Positions 11,735-38,294 of a stretch of 64,000 bases of DNA are shown here, one piece after another. Numbering within the stretch: the stretch's first letter is position 1; the number at the start of each line of letters is the position of its first letter. The stretch lies in assembly GCF_002501655.1 (NCBI RefSeq), contig NZ_DANY01000024.1; one strand, written 5' to 3'. The DNA is from Methanoculleus sp. UBA303 (lineage in GTDB: Archaea > Halobacteriota > Methanomicrobia > Methanomicrobiales > Methanoculleaceae). Below the pieces are notes generated by a model. The model saw only the letters and a list, made by a program, of their open reading frames with translations. It was not told the origin of the DNA and did no database searches. The translations under genes were made by a program, and so were the position numbers.

Positions 11735-12473
11735 CTTCACAAGCCTCCTGACGCGAAAGCGAATCGATGAAATCGGAGATCTCCGACTGGACGTCGCTCC
11801 GGTTGTAGGCCACCGCGATGATCGCTTTGCAGCGGTCGGTGAGGTAGATCGCGTTGTCGTGCTCCTCAACCAGCCCCTGTTTCCGCATAAACTTGACCGT
11901 TTCGTTGACCAGGGTCATCTTCGAACCTACTCCTCGCTGCTTTATCTCATCGGAATCATCTTTGAACTCGGTCTTAGGAAGGCTGGTCCAGAGATCGTAA
12001 ATGATCTTGAAATTGAAATGATACTGCTCGCTGATGCTCTCGAGGTCCTCGAGGCCTGCCATCGCCTTCACCTTGGTCTCGACGGATTCGAGAAGACGGT
12101 CTTTGGGGAGTTTCAGGCGGAACGTCTCGTATACCGCCTCCCGATGAAACTCCGTCACGAGGACATGCATGATAAAAAACGCAGTGTACATCTCAGGGTT
12201 ATTGAACCCCTTGCCGAGCTCATTCTTGATCTCGGTGTTCGAGAGGCCTAAGACCCGGTTGTTGACACCCGGACTTAGATATAATGCATCTTTATACTCG
12301 CAGACAAGCAACCCCAGCTTTTCAGTAAAGAGGTCAAGCGCATCTCTGACTTCAGCATCCTGATCGTACCGGATGAACTCCTTGGGATGCTCACTCCTCA
12401 CCACCGAACCCGTCTCGAGCATGCAGGAGAGTAGATCCATGGCAATCTCAAGATTCTCACGTTTATATTCCAT
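11727..12473 (-). CDS. jetB: Wadjet JetB (KITE subunit, DUF6063-like)
   Basis: 248-aa winged-helix-type protein between jetA and jetC, overlapping both. Start MEYKREN at 12473. Confidence 0.8.
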   Translation of the reverse strand: MEYKRENLEIAMDLLSCMLETGSVVRSEHPKEFIRYDQDAEVRDALDLFTEKLGLLVCEYKDALYLSPGVNNRVLGLSNTEIKNELGKGFNNPEMYTAFFIMHVLVTEFHREAVYETFRLKLPKDRLLESVETKVKAMAGLEDLESISEQYHFNFKIIYDLWTSLPKTEFKDDSDEIKQRGVGSKMTLVNETVKFMRKQGLVEEHDNAIYLTDRCKAIIAVAYNRSDVQSEISDFIDSLSRQEACEDA

Positions 12474-14040
12474 ATTTTCCCTCACCCAAAAACCTGATCT
12501 GCGAGATATACGCGTTGCCGGTCATCCCGATGGGGATCCGATCGGTCGGCTCGGCACGCACCCGGATGACCCGGTACGGAAAGTGCACCGCATCAGATGC
12601 AGCAATAAGAGCCTCCTCAACTGGTTCGCGCCTGACCGGCGACTCACGGTGGTCCGAGAGGTCAAAGACTGTCTCATACGGGTCCCGGATCTCAGCAGCC
12701 TCCGGCTTGCCCGCATGCAAGATCACCTCAGCTCCGCTATTCAGTTCGATGAGAAACGGAATGAGATCGACATTTTCTAGCCCTTCCTCCCCCAGTCTGC
12801 GGCCTATCTCCTCAAGGTACGCAGTAAGGTCAAGGTCTCCGCTCTCGGCCAGGGACGTTAAGAGAATATCCGCGTACACCCTGAAGTTGCCTGCCTGACG
12901 CTCTTTAACGACCTCGTCGATCAATTTTCGGTCGGTCCATTCATTTTTCGTGCGAGTTCCGGCGGTATCGTCTTTCTTACCCGTGACTGCCTGAGGCTCG
13001 AAGATCCTGAGCAGGCTGAACGATCTCTTCAGTGTGGGGAGCAGCAATGGGCGCATCTCCACGATATGTGCATCGTTCGGGAGATTGGCACGGACACGGT
13101 TCTCCAGCGCCTCCTGGAACTGGTACCGCTTCTCAAATAATGAATTAACTCTGATGCGACAGATCCGTTCGTACTCCCGGGGAAAGTCGGTATAGTCCTT
13201 CAAAAGGCCGTTGTGGAGGTCATACCCGTGCTCGAGTTCCACCATGATCTGTTTTATCACAATGAAGTCTTCCTCTTTTCCAAGATATTCGGGATTTGCG
13301 GCAATCTTCTCCCGGCTTTTTCTCAGACCGGCGAGGCTGCTCCGCACCTGGGCAAAGAGTTCATGCTCCTGTTTGAGCTGGGAGAGCACCTCATGGGTAT
13401 ACTTCTCAAAGTCCTCGATCACATCGGGACTACCATACAGCAGTCTATCCAGAAGGTCCTCTTTTTTCCGTTTTTTCTGCTGGACTTTCAGGTTGAGGTC
13501 GCGTATCGTTTCCAGGGCGTTTCGAAAAGAACCACTCTCGATCTGTTTCTTAAAGAGGATCAGGCTGACCGATACTCTGGACTCTTCAGGGAGTTCCTTT
13601 ATACTAATCATGAAATCGAGGCCTTCATTGGTAATACGGTAAGCCCGTTCCCTCCTGTCGTACTCGACCAGGTTAATGTAATAGTCTACTTGGTTTTTCC
13701 GCACCGGGTCAGGATACTGAAAATGATAGAGCATCCCCTGATTGTCGGTCTCAAGCAACTCAAGGACCGCCCGGGAAACAGCCCGGCAGTCAAACTCTCT
13801 GCCGGGGTACATTGCACCCATCGTCTTCTCAACGTGCTCTTCAATCTCATCGACCGGTACCGCCCGTCCTAAAAGCCGTCCTTTCTCTATGAGCAGGGTC
13901 AACATGTCCAGCGCCAGATAAGGCACGTTGTAATCCATCTTTTGGATATTCGGAGAGTTAAATATCTTGAAAAACGGATAGAAGCATTTCAAGTTGTCCA
14001 TACGCTTGTTAATCTCTTTGAAACGCTCAATATATTCCAA
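12463..14040 (-). CDS. jetA: Wadjet JetA (kleisin)
   Basis: 525 aa with N-terminal wHTH-like region and central coiled coil; position in the jetD-A-B-C operon; YRITNEGLDF-type segment. Confidence 0.8.
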   Translation of the reverse strand: MEYIERFKEINKRMDNLKCFYPFFKIFNSPNIQKMDYNVPYLALDMLTLLIEKGRLLGRAVPVDEIEEHVEKTMGAMYPGREFDCRAVSRAVLELLETDNQGMLYHFQYPDPVRKNQVDYYINLVEYDRRERAYRITNEGLDFMISIKELPEESRVSVSLILFKKQIESGSFRNALETIRDLNLKVQQKKRKKEDLLDRLLYGSPDVIEDFEKYTHEVLSQLKQEHELFAQVRSSLAGLRKSREKIAANPEYLGKEEDFIVIKQIMVELEHGYDLHNGLLKDYTDFPREYERICRIRVNSLFEKRYQFQEALENRVRANLPNDAHIVEMRPLLLPTLKRSFSLLRIFEPQAVTGKKDDTAGTRTKNEWTDRKLIDEVVKERQAGNFRVYADILLTSLAESGDLDLTAYLEEIGRRLGEEGLENVDLIPFLIELNSGAEVILHAGKPEAAEIRDPYETVFDLSDHRESPVRREPVEEALIAASDAVHFPYRVIRVRAEPTDRIPIGMTGNAYISQIRFLGEGKYGI

Positions 14041-15112
14041 AGTGCCCCACGCTCCTTATATCTGTCTTATTCAGGACCTCCTGCGGAAGGTACTTCTGCT
14101 CCTGAATGATTCTCCTAATCGCCGCACCGGCGCTCTGGTCAAAGAAGTCGATGAATGGGGATAAAGAGACTGTCTTAATATTGCGGGAACGCCGCAATGG
14201 CTGCGCCTTCTCAGCCCCGACTTTCGATAAAAGATAGGTGTATAGGGAGACGGTCGGCTTGATATCATATTCCAGATAGCGCTCCCGGAGCCGGTTGTAG
14301 ATATAGATGCCCTCCTGGTCGATATCGCCAAAATAGAAGTACTCATCTTCAGGTGTTCCCCCGATTGTTTGCATGTACTCAAACTTCTTTAGAATGGCAT
14401 TCCCCTCACCATAAACGACGAGATGAACTCCTGCAATTCCGCCCGACATCACTGCATTCTGCAACGTCCAAAAAGTATCCTTATTCTCTACGATGAGCAC
14501 CGACCTTTGAGAAACGCCCTCATGTGCATAGAAGTTTTTCTGTATTGAGACAAAAGGTTCAAAGACACGCTTCGCCTTTATGTCGCGGAGGGTGAGTTTC
14601 AGGTTCCGGAGGATGATATCGCCGTCAACGGACGCCTCCCTGGGCATGGTGATCGCCTTTTCGTCACCGAACAGGAGATACGACCTCTCGTTTGCCGTCA
14701 GCTCTTCGGAGTCGCACTGGCGTATCAGGTCATTGATTCTCAGTATGTACTCGCGGTCCCTGGCATAGTGCTCGCTGTGCGTTGCATAATAGTCGATATC
14801 GATAGGAGGGGAGAGGGACAATAGCTCGTCTAGGTGCTCTCTTGAGAGCGAGGCACCATCTTCTGCGATAGATTCTCTGGCTATGGTGTACCTGTTCGGA
14901 AGCCGCCCGTACTGTTGGAGAGGTATTGCATTCTTCAACGGCTTCAGGACGCCAAGGTCAATATACATCCGGATAACATCTATGAACTGTTTTTGCTGCT
15001 CAGGATCTGCAAAAAGGGATATTCCATCTGCTTTGAGAGCAGCGTCTATATCGCTGATATGAACCCTCTTATTCTTATGCCGGAGAAGAATCGTTCGTAA
15101 TAATTCTTCCAT
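14027..15112 (-). CDS. jetD: Wadjet JetD TOPRIM nuclease (DUF2220-like)
   Basis: TOPRIM motifs VLIVENKDTF and YFGDIDQEG, plus NERSYLLFGDEK; first gene of the overlapping four-gene operon. Confidence 0.9.
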   Translation of the reverse strand: MEELLRTILLRHKNKRVHISDIDAALKADGISLFADPEQQKQFIDVIRMYIDLGVLKPLKNAIPLQQYGRLPNRYTIARESIAEDGASLSREHLDELLSLSPPIDIDYYATHSEHYARDREYILRINDLIRQCDSEELTANERSYLLFGDEKAITMPREASVDGDIILRNLKLTLRDIKAKRVFEPFVSIQKNFYAHEGVSQRSVLIVENKDTFWTLQNAVMSGGIAGVHLVVYGEGNAILKKFEYMQTIGGTPEDEYFYFGDIDQEGIYIYNRLRERYLEYDIKPTVSLYTYLLSKVGAEKAQPLRRSRNIKTVSLSPFIDFFDQSAGAAIRRIIQEQKYLPQEVLNKTDIRSVGHFGIY

Positions 15113-17044: not shown

Positions 17045-17509
17045 CTATCCTTTCAGCATGCCTTCCCGATAGGGTTCATACCAGTCGAATACAGTATTCT
17101 TTGTTGATTCGTACCCGCCGTCCAGGTACATCGCCCCGATGATCGCCTCGAGTGTCTCGGCGATGACCGTAGGCTCTTCGTTCTGCTTCTGAGCTTTGGC
17201 ACCCAGTCCAACACAGATCTCGTTCTGCAGATCAAAACGTCTTCCCAATTCGGCAAGAAACGGTCGGCTTTCAATAGTGCTTTTCTCAATTGTGATATCG
17301 CCTTTGGTTTGGTACCCCGATCGCATAAGGAGATCGCACAGTATTGCTTTCAGCACCGCGTCACCCAGTGTCCGGAGAGCATCCTGATCTTTGCATGCTT
17401 TCTGTTGCTGCCTCTCTTCATTTGCTCGTGAAGGATGGAGTAAGGCACGACGCAACAGATCTTCGTCTCTGAAAGAGTAATTGATCTTTTTTTCGAGATC
17501 GGATTCCAT
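17045..17509 (-). CDS. Ribonuclease III catalytic-domain protein without dsRBD
   Basis: INYSFRDEDLLRRALLHPS, QDALRTLGDAVL (cf. NERLEFLGDAVL), IAETLEAIIGAMYLDGG; 154 aa. Confidence 0.88.
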   Translation of the reverse strand: MESDLEKKINYSFRDEDLLRRALLHPSRANEERQQQKACKDQDALRTLGDAVLKAILCDLLMRSGYQTKGDITIEKSTIESRPFLAELGRRFDLQNEICVGLGAKAQKQNEEPTVIAETLEAIIGAMYLDGGYESTKNTVFDWYEPYREGMLKG

Positions 17510-17608: not shown

Positions 17609-18355
17609 TCAGTACGTACCAGCCACACGTTTCTTCTCGTAGCCTTCAACCTGCTGCGACGCGTAGCTGAAAAGCGCCGTCTCCACATCCGCCGGCAGCC
17701 ACATACCCTCCTCCCGAAGCCCGGACTCCGTATAGCATGGCGGATGCGGACAGGCAATCCCATCCCGGTTCAGCGTCTGAGCGATATGGTTGAGAATCGC
17801 AACCCAGGTGCCGTACTCTCTCGGCCAGCCCTCCTGGGAAGAAGGGATCGTCCAGCGGTTTCCGGATTGGCTAACAGAGAGGTCAAGGAGTTGGTAGCGG
17901 TGAAGAGTTCGATCGTCCCCTCTCCCAAACGTCCGGACGAGCCGCGTATCGAGGGCTCCGAAGACCTGCGGTACCGCAAAGTGGAGGATTTTACTACAGT
18001 ACGTCGGTCCGAAACCGCGAATCTGGGACTCGAGGATACAGACCGCGTTCTCCGGCTCTCTCGATAGCCAGCACGCCGGCGTATCGTCGACGTAGAGCGT
18101 TACCTTAAGAGAACTCCGGCAGGAGATCCCTTTTTTATTCGGAAGTTTTCCCCACTCAGCCACCTGCAGCAGGTGATCCCGGTTGATTGCATACCGCTTT
18201 GCCGCAGCCGAGATCTCCCGCTCTAGGCGGAAGAGATCAGGGAACCCTTTCTTCCAGGTATCCCCTTCCCAGATGTATGACCGGTAGAGGTTGGGCATAT
18301 CCTGTTCCTGAAGGAATGTGCTGATCACACTGTACTGAGATGACGAGAGGGGCAT
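17609..18355 (-). CDS. HhH / OGG-fold DNA glycosylase-like protein, paralogue A
   Basis: HhH-like IRGFGPTYCSK followed by FGALDTR (candidate catalytic Asp) and C-terminal ADVETALF. Start set at MPLSSS (18355) by alignment with paralogue B. Confidence 0.6.
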   Translation of the reverse strand: MPLSSSQYSVISTFLQEQDMPNLYRSYIWEGDTWKKGFPDLFRLEREISAAAKRYAINRDHLLQVAEWGKLPNKKGISCRSSLKVTLYVDDTPACWLSREPENAVCILESQIRGFGPTYCSKILHFAVPQVFGALDTRLVRTFGRGDDRTLHRYQLLDLSVSQSGNRWTIPSSQEGWPREYGTWVAILNHIAQTLNRDGIACPHPPCYTESGLREEGMWLPADVETALFSYASQQVEGYEKKRVAGTY

Positions 18356-18636
18356 GTGAATGGTCTCAAGGTGAGTTTGGGCGCTGGAACAATAATAAGG
18401 GATGATATTCGGGTTCCGGTTCGCCACCAGACCATTCCGAGAGCACGCTTTGGTAAACCTGGTTTTTCAGGAGATCTCCAGGTGGCGGTGAGTGAATGAA
18501 ACATGGCAGATTAATATAGTCGCAGCATCCTGATAGACAGTTAAGAGTTGCCGTAACGTGAAACCGGGGGCGAGACGCTCTCCATCGACCCTCCAAAACC
18601 CCACACACGAACAACGGCATTCAAGGAAAACCTTCC

Positions 18637-20799
18637 ATGACGACCCCGTACCCTCCGTCCAAACGTGATGACCTCGCGAGGTTCTACGTCCTGATCGACG
18701 AACTCAAAGACCGTCTCGGAGGATATCGCTATCTGTCCCGATGCCACGATCGGATGGACTGGCCGAGACGAGGGGTCTACTTCTTCTTCGAGCCCGGTGA
18801 AGTCCGCTTCGATGGGACGGCGTTGCGGGTCGTCCGTGTAGGAACGCATGCCATAGCCACGAATACGGGTACCCGGCTCTGGCGGCGCCTCGCCACGCAC
18901 CGTGGAACCAGGAGCGGCGGCGGAAATCATCGCGGTTCGGTCTTTCGAAAACTCGTCGGCGCTGCGCTGATACACCGGGGAGACTATCCCGCCTCTGCTA
19001 CGGCACTGTGGGGAATCGGCAACACAACCCGGCGGGAGGCTCATGAGAGAGAGTGGATTGTCGAGCGGGACGTCAGCGAGTACATCGGGAGGATGCCGTT
19101 CCTCTGGCTCCCGGTTGATGACGAACCCGGACCGGAAAGCGATCGTAAGGTCATTGAAAAGAACGCGATCGCACTGCTCAGTGCGGTTCACGGAAGCCCA
19201 GACCATCCCTCCGAGACCTGGCTAGGACACGCATGCCCCCATCCGGACATGCGTGCATCCGCCCTCTGGAACTCGGATCACGTGCGGGAGCCCTACGACC
19301 CGGCATTCCTTGACCTATTTGAGGGATATGTCTCGTCCGTGGCATCCAGTGGATCTCCGCTTTCAGATGAGAGTCTTGAAATCGTCACGCAGCGACACCG
19401 AAGCATGGACGATGAACAGCACGCAGATCACCTCTGGCTTGCCACAGTCACCCTCCGCTCTGATACATTCAAGTACCCGAACAATGACCCCGAGAAGAAC
19501 CGAGCGAAGAACGAAGACCGGTTCACCGCTCTCACCCGGATCATCACCGACCTCGCGGCGAGCTATTCCGGACCGGGAGTCGTCGTGTTTCCCGGCGGGT
19601 ATTTCCATTCAGGCACTGATGAGGTCGATGCGCAGGAGAACTCTTACCTGCAGGCAATGGTGGACAGGGTTGCAGGCCTGCTGAATGCTCTGCCACATCA
19701 TCCAGCCCCGATCTATGCAACTATTGGCATTGACGGCAAGGTTGACGTTCAAGAGGGAGACTCATACCGGTACGATCGGAACCAGGTGGGCATCGCCGTC
19801 ACGCGGGACGGGCTTGTCGCATTTGCAAAGAAATTTTATCCAACGGATGATCGCGAAAAGAATCTGGTCGATCTTGCTGAAAGTTACTCCTCACGCGAAA
19901 CGGCACTCGGGCAACGATGGGATCGCGTGTTTTCGATCGGCAAGCAGGGATTCTACCTTGCCATTTGTAACGATATCAAGGGACTGCCCGCGATAGAAAA
20001 GCCAGATGGTGTCGCGTATATCCTGAATCTGGTTCATGGCTGTTATCGACCGGGTGAAGGCCCTAAATGTACTTATTTCGTTCGAATGGGATTTGGGGGT
20101 GCATCCAGGTCCTGGAAATGCCCGGTCTTCGGTACAGTTGTCTTCTTCCAACGTGACATTGCAGAGAAGTGGCGACCAGGCATGTACTACCGGACATGGG
20201 ACAAGATGCCCATACAATGCACAACCGATGAAAACAGCACCATGCCCGAGCATACTCTCGATTTGATAGCATTGGCGGACGGCTATGCCCGCGTTGATGT
20301 ATACGATCTTGACACACTACCCGCACAGGCGGCCATCACATCCGAAATATGCAGAGAGAGATCGAAGATTCCGGTGAGGTCATCGACGCCGCAAGTCCGT
20401 GAACCCGATTCAATCCTCGATGAGCGCTATAACCGGCTTCTCTCGGCACTGACACAGGTCTTCGGAAACACTGTCATGGAACAGAAGACGAAGAACACTA
20501 TCCGTGGAAAGAATGTGATCGGATATCCCGGAAAACAGCAGATCGACATGATATCGTTGTTTAAACCGGGAAAACAGAGCGGGAACGGCATAAGATTCCG
20601 TATGTACACCCATCTCATTGCGGCACATCTCAATACTGGTGAGAAAACAATTGCAGCTTTGCTCCCACAAAATTCAGTGTACGGAGAGGAGCGGGAGAAC
20701 CCGCATATTGGAGAGATCTTCCAGGAAGGTTCTTTTAAAACTGAAGGCGAGGTAGAGGCATTTCTAACCGGCGTTCAAGAGCTGCATGGCAGAGGTTGA
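18637..20799 (+). CDS. Fusion protein: GIY-YIG-like nuclease + carbon-nitrogen hydrolase (nitrilase) fold + unknown C-terminal domain
   Basis: N-terminus RRGVYFFFE...VVRVGTHA...LWRRLATHRG...IEKNAIALLS. Middle VVVFPGGYF, RNQVGIAVTRDG, AKKFYP, FYLAICNDI. 720 aa. Confidence 0.6.
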   Translation: MTTPYPPSKRDDLARFYVLIDELKDRLGGYRYLSRCHDRMDWPRRGVYFFFEPGEVRFDGTALRVVRVGTHAIATNTGTRLWRRLATHRGTRSGGGNHRGSVFRKLVGAALIHRGDYPASATALWGIGNTTRREAHEREWIVERDVSEYIGRMPFLWLPVDDEPGPESDRKVIEKNAIALLSAVHGSPDHPSETWLGHACPHPDMRASALWNSDHVREPYDPAFLDLFEGYVSSVASSGSPLSDESLEIVTQRHRSMDDEQHADHLWLATVTLRSDTFKYPNNDPEKNRAKNEDRFTALTRIITDLAASYSGPGVVVFPGGYFHSGTDEVDAQENSYLQAMVDRVAGLLNALPHHPAPIYATIGIDGKVDVQEGDSYRYDRNQVGIAVTRDGLVAFAKKFYPTDDREKNLVDLAESYSSRETALGQRWDRVFSIGKQGFYLAICNDIKGLPAIEKPDGVAYILNLVHGCYRPGEGPKCTYFVRMGFGGASRSWKCPVFGTVVFFQRDIAEKWRPGMYYRTWDKMPIQCTTDENSTMPEHTLDLIALADGYARVDVYDLDTLPAQAAITSEICRERSKIPVRSSTPQVREPDSILDERYNRLLSALTQVFGNTVMEQKTKNTIRGKNVIGYPGKQQIDMISLFKPGKQSGNGIRFRMYTHLIAAHLNTGEKTIAALLPQNSVYGEERENPHIGEIFQEGSFKTEGEVEAFLTGVQELHGRG

Positions 20800-20813: not shown

Positions 20814-21692
20814 CTATTCAACGGTGTCGCTCTCAAGCAGCCCGCTCACACAGGCAATGTACCTCCCGGCATCGGTTATGTGAACAGTGAATCGTCTGCC
20901 CATCCAGATGCGAGTGATGTAGCCTGCAGTTTCCAACTTGTGCAGGTACTTCCGGTTCGTCCTGTTGAGGAGCTCCCGGTTCAGCGAACTTGAAACATAT
21001 TCGCCGCTCTTGTTCTCCTTATCGGGCAGATGCTTGTAGCCTTCGATCCCTTTCTTCTGGAAAAGGGTGAAGAGGTCTTTGCTGGTCATTCCTTGCTCCC
21101 GCCGGTAGAGTTCGACAAGCAGCAGCTGACACTCGGCGTCCGGCATCATGATAGAGAAGTTGTACAGCGGTTCGACCCGTCCGGTCTTCACAATACTCAG
21201 ACCGTGATCTGCCTCGAGCGCGGCATCGTCGCCAGTTGCATAGCGGTCAGCATGCACATAGTACGCCGTAACCCCGTGCACCATCGCCGCCATGGTGACG
21301 GCCACCGATGTCATCCTGCCGCAGGCTGACATATTGATGAGGATCTCGTTCCCCTGCCGCTTCTCTTTCACAATCAGGGACGAGACGACCCGGAGCACGT
21401 CGAGGATGTCGAACATATTGCAGTAGGTGACTTCCGGATGGACGCCCGCCGCCAGCAACCCTTCACAGACTTTCTTCGTATAGTGACGCTGCTTCTCCAG
21501 CATCTGCTCGTCCAGATCGGCGGTGTCCGGGACAACAATGACGTACGCCCGCTCGGCCCGATAGGTATTGAACGGCTGTACTGCCCGGTCGATCTCATGC
21601 CCGAGCGGGATCAGGTGAACCCGCTCGTTCAGGCCGTCGGGCCGGGGAGGCTTGATCGGATCGGAAGTCTTCACAATAGTCACAATAGTCAC
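20814..21692 (-). CDS. CARF-like + winged-HTH transcriptional regulator (DUF6293/Csa3-like)
   Basis: Rossmann-like N-terminus RVHLIPLGHEIDR...INMSACGRMTSVA and C-terminal wHTH YLHKLETAGYITRIWMGRRFTVHITDAG. Confidence 0.75.
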   Translation of the reverse strand: MTIVTIVKTSDPIKPPRPDGLNERVHLIPLGHEIDRAVQPFNTYRAERAYVIVVPDTADLDEQMLEKQRHYTKKVCEGLLAAGVHPEVTYCNMFDILDVLRVVSSLIVKEKRQGNEILINMSACGRMTSVAVTMAAMVHGVTAYYVHADRYATGDDAALEADHGLSIVKTGRVEPLYNFSIMMPDAECQLLLVELYRREQGMTSKDLFTLFQKKGIEGYKHLPDKENKSGEYVSSSLNRELLNRTNRKYLHKLETAGYITRIWMGRRFTVHITDAGRYIACVSGLLESDTVE

Positions 21693-21774
21693 GTGAATTT
21701 ATTAAAGGTTCCCCTGTGCGTATACAGCAATGGGACAGGGCGATGGGGAGCTCTGCTCGCACGAGGAACCAGAA

Positions 21775-22509
21775 ATGAACGGACATACCATCAAAGCACC
21801 GGTAAGAGAGCGGATCGACAACCTGATCAAGACCTGTGACTTCGCAGATCTCTACCGCACGTACGCATGGAAACGGGATCGCTGGCAGAATGGATTCCCG
21901 GATATCTGCCGGCTCGAGCATGAGATCGGCGACGCGGCCAGAGCAGGAACACTCTCCGAAGACCACCTGAAAGCGATCGCGCGGTGGGGCGGCCTGCCGA
22001 GCATCGAGCGGATTAAAGCGCCCACCCCGATCCAGATCGCGCTCTTTGAGGATGGAAACGTCGCCCGATGGGCAGAAGACAATCCAGAGAACGCCATCCG
22101 CATACTCGCCGGTCAGATCCGGGGGTTCGGCCCCACCTATACCAGCAAGCTCCTGCGGTTCGCAGCACCGGAACTCTTCGGGGCTATCGACACCCGGATC
22201 GTCCGGGTTTTCGGAATAGGAGACACCGCATCCGACGACCTGCGCCTTCTCGACCTGACTGCAACGCCCGTCGACGGACGCTGGGCGATCCTCTCCGGTC
22301 AGCAGGGCTGGCCGGATGAGTATAGAATGTGGATCGCCATTCTGACCTATGCAGCGGCGCAGCTCAATGCAGCAGGCAAACTGTGCCCCCACCCAGACGC
22401 TTGCGTCGATTCAGGACTTCGCGAGCGTGGGATCTGGCAGAACGCTGATGTGGAGATGGCATTCTTTAATTACGCTTCGGAGAATATCCAGAACATAAGG
22501 AGGAACTGA
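21775..22509 (+). CDS. HhH / OGG-fold DNA glycosylase-like protein, paralogue B
   Basis: IRGFGPTYTSK, FGAIDTR, ADVEMAFF; aligns end to end with paralogue A. ATG at 21775 is preceded by GAGGA. Confidence 0.6.
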   Translation: MNGHTIKAPVRERIDNLIKTCDFADLYRTYAWKRDRWQNGFPDICRLEHEIGDAARAGTLSEDHLKAIARWGGLPSIERIKAPTPIQIALFEDGNVARWAEDNPENAIRILAGQIRGFGPTYTSKLLRFAAPELFGAIDTRIVRVFGIGDTASDDLRLLDLTATPVDGRWAILSGQQGWPDEYRMWIAILTYAAAQLNAAGKLCPHPDACVDSGLRERGIWQNADVEMAFFNYASENIQNIRRN

Positions 22510-22510
22510 A

Positions 22511-23821
22511 ATGAATACCCCTGAAGACCGCTCACGGGAAGCAAATGAGCTGAGGAAAACTGGGAGATGCAACGATGCCCTGGAGATCTATCGTGAGCTC
22601 TGGGACGGCCAGTATCACAACGGATATACTGCTGCAGGCCTGCTGCACTGTCTCCGAAAGCTACACCGTATCAACGAGGCGATGACTTTCGCCGACGAGA
22701 TCGCCGCGCGGTACCCCGATCTCAACTGGGTAAACCTTGAGGTCGCGTGGGCATACGTCGACTACATCAAGGAGATCGCAGAGGACGGAGCTTCCGTCCC
22801 GGTGCTCCACGCCTGCGGAGAGAGGGTTCTCTCCAGAAACCCGCCCCCACAACCGGTGAACCATATCGCCTTCACCATTATGAAACCGGCAAAAGACGCC
22901 AAGGACTGGAATACACTGGCAGCATGGATGTCCCGGGTCGATCCGTCGCTGCTCAGCCCGGCGGGGATGAAGCTCCCCGACGGCAAAGAAGGCTGGAGTT
23001 ACCTTGCCCGGTGGTATCACTACCGGAACATGGGTCTCATCGGCACCGGGCGAGCGCAAGAGGCCCTTCCCCTCTGCCGTGAAGCGATCGAGAAGTTTCC
23101 GAACCAGTACAAATTCTTTGCATACGACCTCGCCAGGGCGTATGCGGGCATCGGTGCGTACGAAAAGGCAGCAGAGACATTTGACGAACTCTGCCGGAAT
23201 GTCCGGCCGGACTTCTACCACCTCTTTGATTATGGAAAGGTTGTCCACCAGCTCGGCCGCCCGGAAGAAGCATTGGGACTGATGGCCCGGGCTGCGAAGG
23301 CAGGGCAACGCCCGGAGTTCATGGTCGGATACTTCATGGATATGGGTGACATCTTCAAGCAGGTCGGCCGCCTGGACGCAGCTCGCGACCACTATACGCT
23401 GGCAACAGCCCTGCGGATGCGAAATTCGTGGTCCATCCCTGCTGAATTGCAGCAGCGCCTCGATGAGAACGCCATCGCTTCGATCGAGGATTCCGTCGAG
23501 GAACTCACCTATCGGTGCAGTCGCCACTGGAGCGACTGCGAAACCGAACCGAGTCCCATAACGACGCAGTATGAGCGGGAAAAACCACTTGAGGAGGGAA
23601 TCACCGGCACGATCTATCTCGGCCATCCAGAGCGCGAGTATTTCTTCATCAACCCGCCGGGCACTGACGGATACATTGGATTCAAGAACGAGCTCACCTG
23701 GGCACCTGAAGACCGGAGCCAGGTTGTATTCGATGTGGTTCCATCGTTTAACCGGAAGAAGAACGAGTGGGCTGCAAAGGCGGCGAACGTCCGACCGACA
23801 GACAATACCCCAGCAAAGTGA
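22511..23821 (+). CDS. TPR-repeat protein with C-terminal cold-shock/OB-like domain
   Basis: Repeated helical TPR-like units (ALPLCREAIEKFP, YDLARAYAGIGAYEKAAETF, YGKVVHQLGRPEEAL). C-terminal GTIYL...YFFI...VVFDVVPS...AKAANVR resembles a CSD. Confidence 0.75.
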   Translation: MNTPEDRSREANELRKTGRCNDALEIYRELWDGQYHNGYTAAGLLHCLRKLHRINEAMTFADEIAARYPDLNWVNLEVAWAYVDYIKEIAEDGASVPVLHACGERVLSRNPPPQPVNHIAFTIMKPAKDAKDWNTLAAWMSRVDPSLLSPAGMKLPDGKEGWSYLARWYHYRNMGLIGTGRAQEALPLCREAIEKFPNQYKFFAYDLARAYAGIGAYEKAAETFDELCRNVRPDFYHLFDYGKVVHQLGRPEEALGLMARAAKAGQRPEFMVGYFMDMGDIFKQVGRLDAARDHYTLATALRMRNSWSIPAELQQRLDENAIASIEDSVEELTYRCSRHWSDCETEPSPITTQYEREKPLEEGITGTIYLGHPEREYFFINPPGTDGYIGFKNELTWAPEDRSQVVFDVVPSFNRKKNEWAAKAANVRPTDNTPAK

Positions 23822-23851: not shown

Positions 23852-24259
23852 ATGGAGATAACTGTCATCGCCAGATTTGGGGTAGGCGATATCGACACCT
23901 ATGAGATCTCACCGGCAGTCTTGGAGATAGTCGTAGATCCAGAACGAGGCGGGGTTGTGGAAGACATACTCCTCCGTCACTCCACTTTAGGGAACTTTCG
24001 GTACGCTGCAGAACCACCTCTCGGAAGATTCCAAATTACAGTAGGTCAGCATAGCGACCTTGACCGCATCGAAGAGGCACTGGTGGAGATCGCAACGCTG
24101 GAAGGCGATGGAGTTCCCTTTAACTTCAGCAACACCTATGCCATACGGGATCTCATCCGGGAACTGCAGCAGCAGCGAGAGGAGATGATCGTGAGAAAAG
24201 AGACTGACACGATCGAAGACGAGATCGCGACAGGAATTTACGGCGACGAGTATTACTGA
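23852..24259 (+). CDS. Hypothetical acidic protein, 135 aa
   Basis: GGAGG RBS-like motif upstream, co-oriented 30 bp after the TPR gene; no motif recognised. Confidence 0.7.
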   Translation: MEITVIARFGVGDIDTYEISPAVLEIVVDPERGGVVEDILLRHSTLGNFRYAAEPPLGRFQITVGQHSDLDRIEEALVEIATLEGDGVPFNFSNTYAIRDLIRELQQQREEMIVRKETDTIEDEIATGIYGDEYY

Positions 24260-24277: not shown

Positions 24278-27200
24278 TCAAAACAGAGTGCACCTATTTG
24301 ATGTTTTTTCAGAACCGATCACAGTTTTTAGATCAGCGATATGGTCTGTAGTAAAATAAACTGTTACCCGCCCCTTTGCAAGAACGATCTCCAATGCATT
24401 TCCTTCCATCCTTTCAAACAATGCTCTCATCAAATCACGTGACGCATTCGCATATTGGAACATTGCACTATGGTTAGGGCACAGCGCCAGATAGTTCTCA
24501 CGATGGCGTTTCTTCAGGTCAGTCAGAAATTCAACCTTCTCCACATAGTAAGTCCCATCGTCAAGCTGAAAGGGGAGCGGTTTTTTACAGATCTGACAGA
24601 TCATCACCCCATCACGATCTGTATAGTGGTCGCGAAGATATTGCTCAGCCTCTAACTTGACCTCTTCTCGGCCAATAGAGACAGAACGTTCTCGTGTTTC
24701 AGTGATCCGATCTTGAGCCATAGTGGCCTGTTGCGCAACACGTGCGGCTCTGAAGTCCGGGTTACGGGACTCATGTTCAGGGAGCTCATTCGTCCAAGGA
24801 GAACGCTGCTCTGCCAGGGGCTGATCAACAGCCAATCCTGGGCTATAAACGGGTCTGGTAGTTCCTTTGAAATCCACTGCATCACTACTCTGGCCGAACT
24901 CACCAACGATCACTCCGTCGCTTGCGGCGTGATGTGTCTGAGCACCCCCTTCACTGGAAGGAGCTGTCGTGGGTACTCCCTTCAAAGGTGATGGACTGAC
25001 AGGCGCTATATCCTCCGGAAATAAGCCAGGTTCCCTCGACAACTCAGGTTCGAGAGAGAGAGTGTTTCCGTCTTCTCCCAAGGAATCAATCCACTCCCTG
25101 ACCTCATCCGGAACTTTTAGATTTTCTTTCTTAATTCTCCATTCCCAATCGTTTTCGCCAAGGACAACTTCAACCCGGTTAGATAATTCGATGTAAGCGT
25201 GATTTGGCATTAAGCAACGGGCAATAGCCCAGGCAACAGAGTTTTTGACGTGACCACCTGAGCTGTTTGAAATAAGCAGTCTGCCCGAATCTATATCCAA
25301 GTACGCATCACAGGGTTTTTCTATCGCGATTTCCCCTAGGCGATAAACCACATTTAGTTCATCAGTCAGACATTCAGTCGTTTTCAGGAATGACTTGAGT
25401 GTTTTCCTCTCCAGCAGTCTCTTGTAATCATCCGGAAACTTTTCAAAGATCCAGGTAGCGACGAGAATTTTTGCCGAATCGGTCAGAAAATCAGGTTCTT
25501 CTTTATTTCGACGTCCACTATTTCCCACCACTGAATAGGTTACTGCATCTGAGAGATATCGAAGTCCGAAAGCCTGAAAAAATACCCCCCAATCCGCAGA
25601 AGAACCTTTTGGAGGATGCCATATCAGGTGGACGCCACTGCTTTGAAATATTTCTTTCAGTTCCCCATCGCCCGGAATAAATACAGATTCTGGAGATTCA
25701 AAGGTAGAATTCTGCGTCAATATTTTCGCTTCATGTTTGAACCCATCCCACCACGCGGGACGTTTCTCTTCAGCCATTGCACAGACAGGACGCACTTCCC
25801 GGTAGATGTTGGTCAGAATCTTTTCGATCCTCTGCTTTTCACCATCTAATTCACCCTGAAGAGACAGCCACCGCCGAGCGAAACATTCGGTGTCAACATC
25901 CTTTTTAACTGAGAGCGCATCTACAAAAAAACCCTTAAGTTTTGGGTAATGTTTTTCGAGGTAGAAGAACTCATCACCCAGCATCTCGCTGCGATCACTC
26001 CAGATGACTTCATTGATCGAAGCCCAGCGGGGCGCTGTTGCTTCCGCAGGTATGAAAAAGAGATTGCCTACCTTGAACCGTTTGATTATATCAGAATCTA
26101 GATCCAAAGAGGCGAGATATCGGTACACTCTTTCCGCGAACTCCGGGGATCCAGATCCTTTTTGCGACTGTTCTTCTAGGATGGCGACTAATTCTCCGGC
26201 GTTTACTTGATCTCTGATACCCAGTAGCTTAATCACACTTTTAGGAAGAGTCCCTCTAAAATAGGGAACAGAATCGCTAAAAATTTCTCGAATGTTCTCG
26301 AAATGGAGAAACGCTTCATCGGGACGGGTATAGCCTTTTGCCGTAGGCAGCCAAGGAGTATTTTTTAGCGATACAAGGAGTTCTGAATCGTAATTTGATT
26401 TTCTCCGAGAATAGTAAAAGTACGTGACCGTGGCTTTTAACCAAGGCATCGTTTCATTTTGGTGATTTAGCCAATTGATTAAACCTTGTGAAAATTTGAC
26501 TTTCCCTGCTTCGTCAAGCGTGTGGAAGCGATTTAATAATTCAAAAGGTCGCCAATTGGATATTTTTCTTCCACTTGTGGAATTATTATCACGTACACAT
26601 TCTCTTTCGTATACTGTCAGTGGACTAGATTCAAGATCTTCATTTTTTCGAGCTGGAGGATAGCGCGTAACCCCCACTTTATCCCACAGTTTTTCAATCC
26701 CATCCGGTAGACCAGTTACATCGTCACTGCAAATATAACGGTTTGAAAGTGAGACAAGGTGTTGCCTATCCTCTGTTGTCGCAAAGACGTTTTGCCATCC
26801 AGTTTCAGGGTCTAATGCTTCTGGCGTTACTAGGACCTGGATCCCAGGCAGGGCTTTTGCTTCCGACAGCAGCATCTTCCTGTTATCCGAGAGCAATACC
26901 GGAATATCCTTGAAATCAATCTCCTCCACTTCGGCAAACTGTGAGAGAAAAATGGTTACAGATACGAGCTCATCTTCTGATAGATATTTATACCCTATTT
27001 TAAGCGAGTCCAGAATATCAACTGCGCAATTTGCTTTTGAGAAGGGCTTAATTCTCAAAATTTTGGTCATCCAGTCGCAGATCTGTTTGTCGTTTTTTAT
27101 TTTGCTGTAAAAATCCTTATGCAGAAAGGCCAGTGTTACACAGGTGCACTCAGGGACATCCCTCAGTGCTTTCTCACAGTCCTCATCGCATTCGAAATAA

Positions 27201-28735
27201 ATTGGTTGCTCCCTGTCACAGGACCAGCGTGTTCCATTTTCCATCTCTATCGGGACAATCGGACAACCTGCCAAACCGGCTTCTGAAATAGAGGTAGACG
27301 AGAGATACTGGTAACTCTCTAGTAGCCAATCTAGGCTGTGCTGCTCAACCCAACCCCTGTCCAGAAAGCACTGTCTGACAATACCAGACGTATAATGTCT
27401 GACGCCAATATGTTCCAGTTGTTTTTTGTACGCCTCAATACTCTCCAGGACAAGCCGGTTAGCTAATAGTGCATCTGGATACGCCTTTGCCGAAAGCAAA
27501 GAGCGAAAATTCTTTCCTGCGGTCAAGGTCTCGGATGGCTTACATCTCTTCCCATCAGGTTCGGTCAGGATGACTTCTCGATCTTTGAGCGTATCCTGAA
27601 TCGATTCTACAACCGGTTTAAAGAACGCCACGTGTGACTCAAGGGGAATAAAACGATATATTATCTCACCAAATTCGGTGATGTCCAGACATTTCTCAAA
27701 CGCTTCAACAAAAACTGCAGGAATGCAATCCCGAAGCCATTGGTTCCAGGGTTCATCCTCATGGATAGCCTCGCGGGAACTTGGCAGGAGGAAATCAGCG
27801 TTGAGTAGAAATGGCAGGCCTGTATCTTCACGTACAGGGAGGTAGGCAAAAACCTTGCCGGCACTTTTAGTCTCGCTGTTTAGCGGGAACGCAATCGAGA
27901 CAGATCTATTTTCAATCCCTTTCCTCTTTTCCGGGTTAATATCTGCTGGTTTGTCAAAAGATTGGGTGTGTAAAATGAATTCTTGAGTATAAGCAAAAGA
28001 CTCACCTTGATCTTTCCCTTCAACCAGAACTTGAACCAGTGGTGTATTGGTATCATCTTTCCGTATCGAGCGTTTGTAGCCAGATTCTGTTTCTATGACA
28101 ATTTCTTTCAGTTTCGAAAGGAAAAGAATAGTTACCGGATCGATTTCTTGGAGCATTTTCGCGATATGCTCGTAGGAAAAGTGCGGTTTGCTGAGCGGCA
28201 GGATGATCGTAGTTCCTGATCCGCTGAGGTTTCTAGGAGCTTCGTCGATCCACCGGGGTACGATATATCCCAGTCCGGTTATCTCATTGTGCTCCGGTAA
28301 GCAGAATCTGTAGCCATTGGAGAAAATATGAGGGTTTGTTGTCACACGGAAGACGGACTTAAAGCCAATTCCCTTCTCGCCGATATACCCCTGAACTTTG
28401 GTTTTGGTTGACTCACCTACCTTGCAGATAGCATCGACATTTTCAGGGGAAAAGCCAACCTCGTTGTTTTGAATGATCATCGCCCCGTCTGATCCGGGAG
28501 TGCCCATTGGATCAGATCTTACCAATCGAAAGGAAAGGGATGGTTTCAGTGCAGTATATGCGTTATCTTCCGCATTCTGGATTAACTCAAAGATGAAATG
28601 AGTATCCTTGTTATACAGGTCTCCTGCAAGGATCTTGATCGAGTTATAGAGGCTATCCCTGACGCGCGGCACACTGCTTGCTGCCTCGAACTCCCCACGT
28701 ATTTGTGCGATATGATTCCATGGATCTAAAACCAT
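24278..28735 (-). CDS. Sacsin/HSP90-like (GHKL) ATPase with long helical body and C-terminal HNH-like domain (Tiamat-like architecture)
   Basis: GHKL motifs FELIQNAEDN, NNEVGFS, IGEKGIGFKSVF. C-terminal CQICK...YYVEKVEF...NYLALCPNHSAMF. Start could be 28735, 28750 or 28837. Confidence 0.8.
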   Translation of the reverse strand: MVLDPWNHIAQIRGEFEAASSVPRVRDSLYNSIKILAGDLYNKDTHFIFELIQNAEDNAYTALKPSLSFRLVRSDPMGTPGSDGAMIIQNNEVGFSPENVDAICKVGESTKTKVQGYIGEKGIGFKSVFRVTTNPHIFSNGYRFCLPEHNEITGLGYIVPRWIDEAPRNLSGSGTTIILPLSKPHFSYEHIAKMLQEIDPVTILFLSKLKEIVIETESGYKRSIRKDDTNTPLVQVLVEGKDQGESFAYTQEFILHTQSFDKPADINPEKRKGIENRSVSIAFPLNSETKSAGKVFAYLPVREDTGLPFLLNADFLLPSSREAIHEDEPWNQWLRDCIPAVFVEAFEKCLDITEFGEIIYRFIPLESHVAFFKPVVESIQDTLKDREVILTEPDGKRCKPSETLTAGKNFRSLLSAKAYPDALLANRLVLESIEAYKKQLEHIGVRHYTSGIVRQCFLDRGWVEQHSLDWLLESYQYLSSTSISEAGLAGCPIVPIEMENGTRWSCDREQPIYFECDEDCEKALRDVPECTCVTLAFLHKDFYSKIKNDKQICDWMTKILRIKPFSKANCAVDILDSLKIGYKYLSEDELVSVTIFLSQFAEVEEIDFKDIPVLLSDNRKMLLSEAKALPGIQVLVTPEALDPETGWQNVFATTEDRQHLVSLSNRYICSDDVTGLPDGIEKLWDKVGVTRYPPARKNEDLESSPLTVYERECVRDNNSTSGRKISNWRPFELLNRFHTLDEAGKVKFSQGLINWLNHQNETMPWLKATVTYFYYSRRKSNYDSELLVSLKNTPWLPTAKGYTRPDEAFLHFENIREIFSDSVPYFRGTLPKSVIKLLGIRDQVNAGELVAILEEQSQKGSGSPEFAERVYRYLASLDLDSDIIKRFKVGNLFFIPAEATAPRWASINEVIWSDRSEMLGDEFFYLEKHYPKLKGFFVDALSVKKDVDTECFARRWLSLQGELDGEKQRIEKILTNIYREVRPVCAMAEEKRPAWWDGFKHEAKILTQNSTFESPESVFIPGDGELKEIFQSSGVHLIWHPPKGSSADWGVFFQAFGLRYLSDAVTYSVVGNSGRRNKEEPDFLTDSAKILVATWIFEKFPDDYKRLLERKTLKSFLKTTECLTDELNVVYRLGEIAIEKPCDAYLDIDSGRLLISNSSGGHVKNSVAWAIARCLMPNHAYIELSNRVEVVLGENDWEWRIKKENLKVPDEVREWIDSLGEDGNTLSLEPELSREPGLFPEDIAPVSPSPLKGVPTTAPSSEGGAQTHHAASDGVIVGEFGQSSDAVDFKGTTRPVYSPGLAVDQPLAEQRSPWTNELPEHESRNPDFRAARVAQQATMAQDRITETRERSVSIGREEVKLEAEQYLRDHYTDRDGVMICQICKKPLPFQLDDGTYYVEKVEFLTDLKKRHRENYLALCPNHSAMFQYANASRDLMRALFERMEGNALEIVLAKGRVTVYFTTDHIADLKTVIGSEKTSNRCTLF

Positions 28736-28849
28736 TCTCTCAACTCCCATTGTCCGCCAGATTATGAGTTCAACACGTTCGTTCCCAGAAACTGTTTTCC
28801 AACTCGAAGCTCCCGGTTGCGGTGCGGACGTTCTCACCCATGCAGCACA

Positions 28850-38219: not shown

Positions 38220-38294
38220 TGCTGCTAAGGGGATTCGAACCCCTGTCGTAGGAGTGAGAGTCCTACATGATTGGCCGGTCTACACTATAGCAGC
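38220..38294 (-). tRNA. tRNA-Glu(CTC)
   Basis: GCTGCTA acceptor stem, anticodon arm GTAGGA-CTCTCAC-TCCTAC, T-loop GTTCGAATC. Confidence 0.97.

What the first reader, a model, noticed from the sequence alone, without database searches (positions are those of the whole stretch)
18637..20799. Three-domain fusion of a GIY-YIG-like nuclease with a nitrilase fold lacking the canonical catalytic Glu
Seen: residues ~1-235 have GIY-YIG hallmarks (GVY, RVG, RLxxH, helix Glu in IEKNA). Residues ~265-555 follow the CN-hydrolase pattern, with Lys (AKKFYP) and nucleophile Cys (AICND) kept but FPE replaced by FPG. A ~125-aa C-terminal domain is unrecognised. An in-frame Met at 19405 sits at the domain junction, and the 5' third looks GC-richer by eye, suggesting a recent fusion. 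Inference: the nitrilase fold may be a ligand or modified-base sensor gating the nuclease, or a non-canonical amidase.
Basis: partly seen in the sequence, partly recalled or inferred. Interest (0 to 1): 0.75.

Follow-up and report, generated by a model that had tools for sequence, protein, structure and literature searches.

The report
Defence nuclease fused to Glu-less nitrilase fold
A methanogen's defence island carries a real 720-residue gene that joins a putative DNA-cutting domain, already listed as an untested phage-defence candidate, to an unnamed branch of the nitrilase enzyme fold that keeps its reactive cysteine but has lost one catalytic glutamate; it most likely helps recognise and cut foreign, chemically modified DNA.

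Summary
ORF 18637-20799 (+) encodes 720 aa in three domains.

- **N-domain (res 11-236):** PADLOC PDC-M57B (E 3.7e-77) = Pfam GIY_YIG_3. My own profile and fold tests could not link it to canonical GIY-YIG domains.
- **Middle domain (res 266-560):** a nitrilase-superfamily fold (Foldseek prob 1.0; HHalign 95.7 %, E 9e-9). Lys399, Glu407 and Cys444 align with the catalytic Lys, second Glu and Cys. The first Glu position is Ala or Gly in all 78 relatives examined.
- **C-terminal domain:** confidently folded, mobile and unassigned.

The "recent fusion" idea fails. The fusion persists in homologues down to about 40 % identity, and they show the same GC gradient.

The nitrilase-like + C-terminal module recurs with swapped DNA-acting heads: GIY_YIG_3, a DUF7255-like putative nuclease, a weak AGOG-like head, and ScoMcrA_N. 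It also follows separate GIY_YIG_3 and DUF6884 genes. Recurring neighbours are a CARF-like wHTH regulator and OGG-like genes, always among defence genes. None of 24 sampled congeneric genomes has the full-length gene.

Best reading (about 50 %): a type IV-like, modification-sensing defence nuclease, a new variant of candidate PDC-M57. Whether the nitrilase-like pocket senses or catalyses is open.

The parts
18637..20799 (+). Whole ORF, 720 aa (P0001), including the TGA stop
   Evidence: The identical protein was called on 14 contigs.
18637..19356 (+). N-terminal domain (res 1-240): GIY_YIG_3 / PDC-M57B putative nuclease. Conserved Y48, R67, H71, H88, H98, R99, E139, E143, R170, E174.
   Evidence: PADLOC E 3.7e-77. 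Pfam tag PF26468 = GIY_YIG_3. Model pLDDT 91.5 with a beta-beta-alpha-alpha-(alpha)-beta-alpha core. Invariant columns.
19357..19431 (+). Acidic, low-confidence linker (res 241-265) containing the in-frame Met257 (ATG 19405-19407). The Met is not conserved.
   Evidence: Standalone module proteins start at the equivalent of L266/W267.
19432..20316 (+). Middle domain (res 266-560): divergent nitrilase-superfamily (CN-hydrolase) fold lacking catalytic Glu-1
   Evidence: Foldseek against PDB. HHalign 95.7 %, E 9.4e-9. 3 of 78 family members reach PF00795 weakly.
19591..19599 (+). P319-G320-G321: the 'FPGG' motif that replaces the canonical 'FPE'. The Glu-1 position is never acidic in the family.
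   Evidence: column 320 = Ala 55, Gly 22, one gap, of 78.
19831..19857 (+). K399 to E407: equivalents of the catalytic Lys and the second Glu (Lys + 8 spacing)
   Evidence: K 76/78, E 71/78.
19966..19974 (+). C444-N445-D446: nucleophile-elbow Cys and the invariant Asp at Cys + 2
   Evidence: C 77/78, D 78/78.
20035..20037 (+). H467: a family-specific, near-invariant His, candidate substitute general base
   Evidence: 76/78.
20413..20796 (+). C-terminal domain (res 593-720): an unassigned alpha/beta domain. It also occurs as a standalone protein and behind other domains.
   Evidence: Model pLDDT about 89. No family hits. Standalone P0223 and fusions P0251 and P0195.
20814..21692 (-). Convergent neighbour: CARF-like (HFX_2341_N) + winged-helix regulator. 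Recurrent partner of the module.
   Evidence: Pfam and PADLOC CARF3. Orthologues at 46-50 % identity sit next to module genes in L003, L027, L029 and L030.
17609..18427 (-). Divergent neighbour: OGG-like (PF21790) protein, paralogue 1
   Evidence: 27.3 bits, cut-off 27. 53 % identical to the L027 neighbour. An OGG-like gene also sits beside the module gene in L046.
21730..22509 (+). OGG-like paralogue 2 (44 % identical to paralogue 1), divergent from the regulator

Best explanation
P0001 is most likely a single-chain, modular anti-virus / anti-mobile-element nuclease of the modification-dependent (type IV-like) kind. It is a variant of the untested PADLOC candidate PDC-M57.

**Proposed roles**
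- The N-terminal GIY_YIG_3 domain is the DNA-cleaving effector.
- The nitrilase-like domain plus the C-terminal domain form a constant recognition or licensing module. Here it takes the place that the base-flipping DUF6884/YaaA domain holds in ordinary PDC-M57.
- The conserved Cys-Lys-Glu-Asp-His pocket would engage a chemical group on foreign DNA or a nucleotide-derived ligand. For this fold, an amide- or nitrile-type group is the natural guess.
- The adjacent CARF-like winged-helix regulator probably controls expression.
- The flanking OGG-like proteins probably contribute base-flipping recognition.

**Shown:** domain identities and fold, the state of the catalytic residues, the recurrent fusion and operon links, the defence-island setting, and the gene's accessory status.

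**Inferred:** nuclease activity, the target, the sensor role, and any regulation.
For: - **Head domain.** PDC-M57B hit at E 3.7e-77. PDC-M57A is DUF6884. 66 of 88 GIY_YIG_3 relatives carry DUF6884/YaaA. Pfam's authors describe that domain as a YaaA-like, probably base-flipping DNA binder (PMC11701544).
- **Split versions.** In L001, L002 and L028 the order is GIY_YIG_3 gene, DUF6884 gene, nitrilase-like + C-terminal gene. This is a Rosetta-stone link.
- **Head swapping.** The same module carries other heads. One is a DUF7255-like head with a 'DFF..IEFDESQHF' motif (P0010, P0011, P0121-P0124, L046). Another is an AGOG-like head, weak at E 0.005 (P0007). ScoMcrA_N precedes the nitrilase-like domain in P0271, P0272 and P0174, and P0132 has an unassigned N-extension, then the DUF7255-like head, then the nitrilase-like domain with no C-terminal domain.
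- **Recurring neighbours.** The CARF-wHTH regulator appears in 5 contexts and OGG-like genes in 3.
- **Setting.** The window holds GajB-like, type I REase, Wadjet JetABCD and TmtA + DrmD-like genes. Homologue loci carry BREX-like, Wadjet, AbiEii and HEPN/MNT genes and an integrase.
- **Accessory status.** The full-length gene is absent from all 24 sampled congeneric genomes.
- **Precedent.** END nucleases join a nuclease to an inactivated repair-enzyme fold that senses hypermodified DNA (PMC12191111).
- **Conserved pocket.**
Against: - No experiment exists for any member. PDCs are explicitly untested.
- The GIY-YIG assignment rests on a Pfam family name plus motif and topology. My HHalign and Foldseek tests were not significant.
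- No nitrilase-fold protein is known to read DNA.
- The middle domain is acidic (pI 5.5).
- Near-invariant Cys, Lys, Glu and His look more like catalysis than passive sensing.
- Many family members are standalone proteins of 260-300 aa whose contexts I could not inspect.
- The small ~130-aa partner present in 4 related loci is missing here.
Confidence: 0.5

Rival explanations
1. The nitrilase-like domain is an active, re-wired cysteine hydrolase or transferase. His467 or Asp446 would replace Glu-1 as the general base. It would chemically process a substrate, for example stripping or converting an amide- or nitrile-bearing DNA hypermodification, or hydrolysing a metabolite. It would then be a second enzymatic effector working with the nuclease, not a sensor.
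For: - Conservation across 78 diverse members is extreme: C444 77/78, D446 78/78, K399 76/78, E407 71/78, H467 76/78, R430 78/78.
- In the DRT1/UG5/DRT11 defence systems a nitrilase domain is required, and its Cys-to-Ala mutant abolishes defence (PMC13436386).
- The family is large and often standalone (1080 hits).
Against: - Glu-1 is regarded as essential in every characterised nitrilase-superfamily enzyme (established knowledge).
- Judging from the titles of the PDB entries hit, Glu-1 mutants of the Nesterenkonia amidase trap covalent adducts.
- No substrate can be proposed from the genomic context, and no modification-synthesis genes are linked.
- The geometry of H467 relative to C444 could not be checked.
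Confidence: 0.27
2. The nitrilase-like domain is mainly an oligomerisation scaffold. The alpha-beta-beta-alpha sandwiches of this superfamily dimerise or form spirals. The scaffold would bring two single-site nuclease heads together for double-strand cleavage, and the pocket would be vestigial.
For: - GIY-YIG nucleases have one active site and need dimers or tetramers to cut both strands (established knowledge).
- The domain stays constant while the nuclease heads are swapped.
- Glu-1 is lost.
Against: A vestigial pocket would not keep Cys, Lys, Glu, Asp, His and Arg at 91-100 % across members that are only 24-39 % identical (one at 58 %).
Confidence: 0.08
3. It is not a defence gene. It would be a DNA-repair or lesion-processing protein (nuclease + OGG-like glycosylases + amidase-like domain) that merely travels in a variable genomic island.
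For: - OGG-like neighbours.
- The DUF6884 member YfjM was pulled down on DNA lesions (PMC11701544).
- YaaA is linked to oxidative stress (same source).
Against: - The full-length gene is absent from all 24 sampled congeners.
- The window region it sits in (1-32 kb) has lower and patchier GC than the 36-64 kb part.
- It is always found among defence, toxin-antitoxin or integrase genes.
- Head swapping is typical of conflict systems.
Confidence: 0.1

Closest known systems
PADLOC phage-defence candidate PDC-M57 (A = DUF6884, B = GIY_YIG_3; Payne et al. 2024, bioRxiv 10.1101/2024.01.29.577857)
   Same: The N-terminal 236 residues are a strong PDC-M57B match (E 3.7e-77). Some relatives' loci (L001, L002, L028) contain the full A + B pair directly upstream of the nitrilase-like module. 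The defence-island setting is the same.
   Different: There is no DUF6884 partner in the window, and the genome has none above the Pfam cut-off. Instead the nuclease is fused to a nitrilase-like domain and a C-terminal domain that are not in PADLOC. PDC-M57 itself is untested.
END nucleases (PLD-type nuclease + inactivated EndoIII/OGG sensor; PMC12191111)
   Same: The logic is the same: a nuclease head joined to a re-purposed enzyme fold with an altered catalytic set, with modular head and sensor swapping and hypermodified phage DNA as target. OGG-like genes flank the gene here.
   Different: The folds differ in both halves (GIY_YIG_3 and nitrilase-like). The nucleophile Cys is retained here, whereas the END sensor domain is described as catalytically inactive. 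No functional data exist here.
Nitrilase superfamily / Pfam CN_hydrolase (PF00795): amidases, Nit2, NAD+ synthetase glutaminase domain, AmiF
   Same: The fold is the same, and the Lys, second Glu and nucleophile-elbow Cys (with Asp at Cys + 2) are in register.
   Different: The first catalytic Glu is replaced by Ala or Gly in the whole family. PF00795 does not detect the protein. A family-specific near-invariant His467 is present. The domain is fused to DNA-acting domains.
RT-nitrilase defence systems (DRT1/UG1, UG5/DRT11, UG6, UG29; PMC13436386)
   Same: A nitrilase-fold domain fused to, or encoded next to, a nucleic-acid enzyme in an anti-phage system. The Cys is needed for defence there, and the substrate is unknown there too.
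   Different: The partner there is a reverse transcriptase, not a nuclease. Those nitrilases are described as canonical CN-hydrolases with the usual catalytic residues. P0001 has no PADLOC DRT hit.
ScoMcrA-type type IV restriction enzymes
   Same: The ScoMcrA_N head domain (PF26345) is fused to relatives of both halves of this protein: to the nitrilase-like domain in P0271, P0272 and P0174, and to GIY_YIG_3 in P0088 and P0112.
   Different: P0001 itself has no ScoMcrA_N, SBD, SRA or HNH domain.

Membership tests
GIY-YIG nuclease superfamily | Significant sequence-profile match to a GIY-YIG family model | tested here: inconclusive
   The precomputed Pfam tag PF26468 is named GIY_YIG_3, but that model is absent from the local library. 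PF01541 does not detect the protein. HHalign against UvrC-type and MUG113 domains gave probabilities below 2 %. None of 89 relatives hits any canonical GIY-YIG Pfam model.
GIY-YIG nuclease superfamily | beta-beta-alpha-alpha-beta-alpha core carrying GIY...YIG strands, an Arg, a metal-binding Glu and an Asn | tested here: inconclusive
   The predicted topology fits: strands 46-56 and 63-70, helices 81-89 and 102-114, strand 154-159, helix 169-181. G46/Y48, R67/G69/H71 and E174 are conserved (G69 at least 90 %, the others invariant). Foldseek against the PDB found nothing (E > 5). The best BFVD hit is a phage GIY-YIG protein, but at E 0.9.
PADLOC candidate PDC-M57 | PDC-M57B (GIY_YIG_3) protein present | tested here: met
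   PDLC04714, E 3.7e-77, residues 11-236.
PADLOC candidate PDC-M57 | PDC-M57A (DUF6884) partner, adjacent or fused | tested here: not met
   No PDC-M57A or DUF6884 hit in P0001 or its neighbours. The genome has only sub-threshold DUF6884 matches elsewhere. The partner is present in the relatives' loci L001 and L028.
Nitrilase superfamily (CN_hydrolase) | alpha-beta-beta-alpha sandwich fold | tested here: met
   AlphaFold model with pLDDT 84. The 50 listed Foldseek PDB hits are all nitrilase-superfamily enzymes, prob 1.0, target-normalised TM-score about 0.5-0.6 for single-domain targets. HHalign 95.7 %, E 9.4e-9.
Nitrilase superfamily (CN_hydrolase) | Catalytic Glu-1 of the Glu-Lys-Cys triad | tested here: not met
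   FPE has become FPGG. The column is Ala 55, Gly 22 and one gap in 78 relatives.
Nitrilase superfamily (CN_hydrolase) | Catalytic Lys, second Glu and nucleophile Cys | tested here: met
   K399, E407 and C444 align to the template Lys, Glu and Cys. They are conserved in 76, 71 and 77 of 78 relatives.
Nitrilase superfamily (CN_hydrolase) | Match to Pfam PF00795 above the gathering score | tested here: not met
   No hit for P0001 or its middle domain, even at E <= 10. Only 3 of 78 relatives hit it, and weakly (best E 3.6e-5).
Type IV (modification-dependent) restriction enzymes / END-like nucleases | A nuclease domain joined to a modified-base reader, cutting only modified DNA | not testable with these tools
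   The architecture and fusion partners are compatible. Activity and specificity need biochemistry.

The most novel reading that the evidence does not exclude
The Glu-less nitrilase fold is a new class of modified-base reader. Its retained Cys/Lys/Glu(/His) pocket would capture, perhaps covalently, amide- or nitrile-bearing hypermodified bases in viral DNA. Examples are 7-cyano- or 7-amido-7-deazaguanine and carbamoylmethyl-adenine. Capture would license the fused nuclease head. That would make this the founding member of a nitrilase-based family of type IV restriction sensors in archaea and bacteria.
Probability: 0.15. Interest if true: 0.85.

Novelty: new variant of a known kind. Interest (0 to 1): 0.6.

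Why it matters
- **An unnamed family.** It defines a sizeable branch of the nitrilase superfamily: 1080 hits (E <= 0.001) among 50 %-identity cluster representatives for a profile that spans the DUF7255-like head, the nitrilase-like domain and the C-terminal domain; many of the 150 hits listed cover only the nitrilase-like part. In the members examined, the canonical first catalytic Glu is missing while the rest of the pocket is almost invariant. That poses a clear enzymological question: is this a new catalytic solution, or a ligand trap?
- **A link to DNA-directed immunity.** The domain is wired repeatedly to DNA-cutting or DNA-reading heads and to a CARF-like regulator, inside defence islands of archaea and of uncultured microbes. 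This suggests a new recognition module for foreign or modified DNA.
- **Possible uses if confirmed.** It would extend the catalogue of modification-dependent restriction systems, which are useful as reagents for detecting hypermodified DNA. It would also give the untested candidate PDC-M57 a mechanistic handle.
- **What is not new.** Nuclease-plus-sensor modularity, nitrilase domains in defence systems, and PDC-M57 itself are all already described.

Tried and rejected
- **Recent fusion:** rejected. The fusion is conserved down to about 40 % identity, and the GC gradient is reproduced in L027 and L005.
- **C-terminal domain as DUF5655-like:** HHalign against 18 DUF5655 domains gave a co-linear but non-significant alignment (E 0.17, prob 0.4 %). 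Not claimed.
- **N-domain against canonical GIY-YIG:** UvrC-type and MUG113 by HHalign, PDB and BFVD by Foldseek. None was significant.
- **First HHalign runs:** these used some wrongly oriented minus-strand loci. They were redone correctly, and only one search is relied on.
- **P0007's AGOG-like head against the window's OGG-like proteins:** no similarity by BLASTP.
- **The ~130-aa partner conserved in L003, L027, L029 and L030:** not present in the window (tblastn).
- **Operator motifs:** no shared operator-like motif or palindrome in the two divergent intergenic regions.
- **PDB sequence searches:** single-sequence and profile searches found nothing.
- **Literature:** searches for PDC-M57 and for CN_hydrolase + anti-phage gave nothing.
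- **Last homologue search (A4):** returned only 7 proteins, so contexts of the many standalone nitrilase-like proteins remain unseen.
Full report

The ORF 18637-20799 (+) runs ATG to TGA and encodes 720 aa. The identical protein was called on 14 contigs in the public collection, so the single reading frame is not an assembly accident.

Local Pfam and NCBIfam scans of the whole protein and of its three pieces return nothing.

**2. N-terminal domain (res 1-240)**

Residues 11-236 match PADLOC model PDC-M57B at E 3.7e-77. The precomputed Pfam tag on this protein and on hundreds of relatives is PF26468. Another tool names it GIY_YIG_3, and it is missing from the local Pfam copy.

The AlphaFold model is confident (pLDDT 91.5). 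It has a beta-hairpin, two helices, an inserted helix, a third strand and a helix carrying E174. That is the GIY-YIG order of elements.

My independent tests did not confirm clan membership:
- Foldseek against the PDB found nothing (E > 5).
- The best viral-library hit is a phage 'GIY-YIG domain-containing protein', but at E 0.9.
- HHalign against UvrC-type and MUG113 GIY-YIG domains from related genomes was not significant.

I therefore treat 'GIY-YIG-like nuclease' as probable, resting on Pfam curation plus motif and topology, and not as shown.

**3. Middle domain (res 266-560)**

A model built on 18 homologues has pLDDT 84. The 50 PDB matches listed are all nitrilase-superfamily enzymes at probability 1.0 and E about 1e-9. 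They include the NAD+ synthetase glutaminase domain, Nit2, Nesterenkonia amidase, AmiF and vanin.

I then compared two profiles: 78 relatives of this domain against 20 bona fide CN_hydrolase domains taken from this and related genomes. After I corrected a strand error in my first attempt, the result was 95.7 % probability and E 9.4e-9.

In that alignment:
- K399 pairs with the catalytic Lys.
- E407 pairs with the second Glu. The Lys + 8 spacing matches known amidases (my own knowledge).
- C444 pairs with the nucleophile Cys.
- The template's 'pE' has only 'FP-GG' opposite it.

Three of the 78 relatives also reach Pfam CN_hydrolase weakly.

Column counts across the 78 relatives:

| Position | Count |
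|---|---|
| Glu-1 position (320) | Ala 55, Gly 22, one gap, never acidic |
| K399 | 76 |
| E407 | 71 |
| C444 | 77 |
| D446 | 78 |
| R430 | 78 |
| H467 | 76 |
| E421 | 75 |
| Q383 | 76 |

The rest of the pocket is far too conserved to be a decayed site.

**4. C-terminal domain (res 593-720)**

It folds confidently (about 89 pLDDT) but matches no library. It is an independent module. It occurs alone (P0223, 132 aa) and behind unrelated sequences (P0251, P0195).

My guess that it is DUF5655-like gave a co-linear but non-significant HHalign result, so I do not claim it.

**5. The fusion is old and modular, not recent**

Full-length fusions exist at 56-64 % identity (P0002-P0004) and at about 40 % (P0008, P0012, P0014).

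The GC gradient is real (0.61, 0.535, 0.48). The same ordering appears in L027 and L005 against different genomic backgrounds, so it reflects what is encoded and not recent history.

Met257 lies in the linker but is not conserved. Standalone module proteins begin nine residues later.

The nitrilase-like + C-terminal module is rare, with about 18 clusters in 5.8 billion proteins. A profile of the module-containing proteins, which also covers the DUF7255-like head, finds 1080 cluster representatives at E <= 0.001. Many of the 150 listed match only the nitrilase-like part and are 260-300-aa proteins.

The module appears in several arrangements:

| Arrangement | Examples |
|---|---|
| Fused to GIY_YIG_3 | P0001-P0004, P0008, P0012, P0014 |
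| Behind a DUF7255-like head with the motif 'DFF..IEFDESQHF' (a Vsr-like nuclease by my reading of the motif only) | P0010, P0011, P0121-P0124, L046 |
| Behind a weak AGOG / HhH-glycosylase-like head | P0007 (E 0.005) |
| With the head domain of the type IV enzyme ScoMcrA (nitrilase-like domain only) | P0271, P0272, P0174 |
| Unassigned N-extension + DUF7255-like head + nitrilase-like domain, no C-terminal domain | P0132 |
| As the third gene after separate GIY_YIG_3 and DUF6884 genes | L001, L002, L028 |

Conversely, GIY_YIG_3 is normally fused to DUF6884/YaaA, in 66 of 88 relatives. DUF6884 is PDC-M57A. Pfam's authors describe it as a YaaA-like, probably base-flipping DNA binder (PMC11701544). 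It also weakly resembles DpdC (E 5e-5).

**6. Neighbourhood**

The window is a dense defence island: a GajB-like helicase, a type I REase, a complete type 3 Wadjet system, HNH, HIT and mini-RNase III genes, and TmtA plus a DrmD-like helicase. Its GC is lower and patchier than the right half of the window.

The convergent neighbour (20814-21692) is a CARF-like HFX_2341_N + winged-helix regulator. Orthologues at 46-50 % identity sit beside module genes in four other, unrelated contexts: L003/L004, L027, L029 and L030.

The two flanking OGG-like genes (PF21790) are 44 % identical to each other. They have a counterpart beside the closest homologue (L027, 47-53 % identity) and an OGG-like gene beside the module gene in a congeneric genome (L046).

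A ~130-aa partner found in four of those loci is absent here.

The host encodes McrA, so it is a methanogenic archaeon. The full-length gene is found in none of the 24 sampled congeneric genomes. It is an accessory gene, probably acquired horizontally.

**7. Mechanism**

Every partner ever fused to either half acts on or reads DNA. The variable-head / constant-module pattern is the signature of conflict systems.

The closest worked example is the END nuclease family. There a nuclease is joined to an inactivated EndoIII/OGG fold that senses hypermodified phage DNA (PMC12191111).

I therefore commit, at about 50 %, to a type IV-like, modification-sensing defence nuclease:
- GIY_YIG_3 cuts.
- The nitrilase-like + C-terminal module recognises or licenses.
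- The CARF-wHTH protein regulates.
- The OGG-like proteins assist recognition.

What the pocket does is open:
- **For a trap or reader:** Glu-1 is lost. Glu-1 mutants of the Nesterenkonia amidase trap covalent adducts, according to the titles of PDB entries among the hits.
- **For a re-wired hydrolase (about 27 %):** Cys, Lys, Glu, Asp and a new His are near-invariant. Nitrilase domains are required, through their Cys, in RT-nitrilase defence systems (PMC13436386).
- **Pure scaffold (about 8 %) and repair rather than defence (about 10 %):** both are less likely.
- **Mild evidence against a large DNA-binding surface:** the middle domain is acidic (pI 5.5).

**8. Novelty**

PDC-M57 is catalogued but untested (Payne et al. 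2024). Nitrilase domains in defence and nuclease + dead-enzyme sensors both have precedent.

I found no description of three things:
- the Glu-1-less nitrilase-like family;
- its fusion to nuclease heads;
- its recurrent CARF-like and OGG-like partners.

I rate it a new variant of a known kind, with moderate-to-high interest. Biochemistry is needed to decide between sensor and enzyme.

Noticed in passing
window 17609-18427 (-) and 21730-22509 (+): Two inverted OGG-like (PF21790) paralogues, 44 % identical, bracket the fusion gene and the regulator. Homologues sit next to module genes in L027 and L046. Whether they keep glycosylase catalytic residues was not examined.
   Followed up: partly
L003 5577-5999, L027 3863-4234, L029 6580-6999, L030 1937-2365: A conserved ~125-140-aa protein of unknown family (35-67 % identical to each other) is transcribed divergently from the CARF-like regulator in four module loci. 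In three of them it lies directly upstream of the module gene; in L027 it lies upstream of the OGG-like gene. It is missing from the window.
   Followed up: partly
window 22511-23821 (+) and 23852-24259 (+): A TPR + DUF7017 protein starts one base after the OGG-like paralogue 2 stop codon and is followed by a 135-aa orphan. It matches the PADLOC 'TPR fused to cold-shock-like domain' model and PDC-M16B. L030 also has a TPR gene two genes downstream of its module gene. This may be a separate candidate system.
   Followed up: no
window 24278-32494 (-): A very large TmtA-like protein (1519 aa, PADLOC E 2e-146) lies next to a DrmD/SNF2-like helicase (1214 aa).
   Followed up: no
window 7337-15112 (-): A complete type 3 Wadjet operon (JetD-JetA-JetB-JetC, PADLOC E down to 2e-214) in a methanogenic archaeon (McrA found in the genome).
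   Followed up: partly
window 17045-17509 (-): A 154-aa RNase III-domain-only protein (Pfam Ribonucleas_3_3, E 8e-22) inside the island.
   Followed up: no
L047 1495-1989 (-) (genome G010, same order): A 164-aa ORF consisting only of the C-terminal domain (49 % identical to res 571-719) sits beside an AlbA_2/HATPase_c_4-like gene. It is either a remnant of a decayed module gene or a standalone C-terminal-domain protein.
   Followed up: no
window 1-32000 versus 36000-64000: The left half (the defence island) has lower, patchy GC (0.42-0.57). The right half is uniform at 0.59-0.64. tRNA genes lie at 38220, 40770 and 61430.
   Followed up: no
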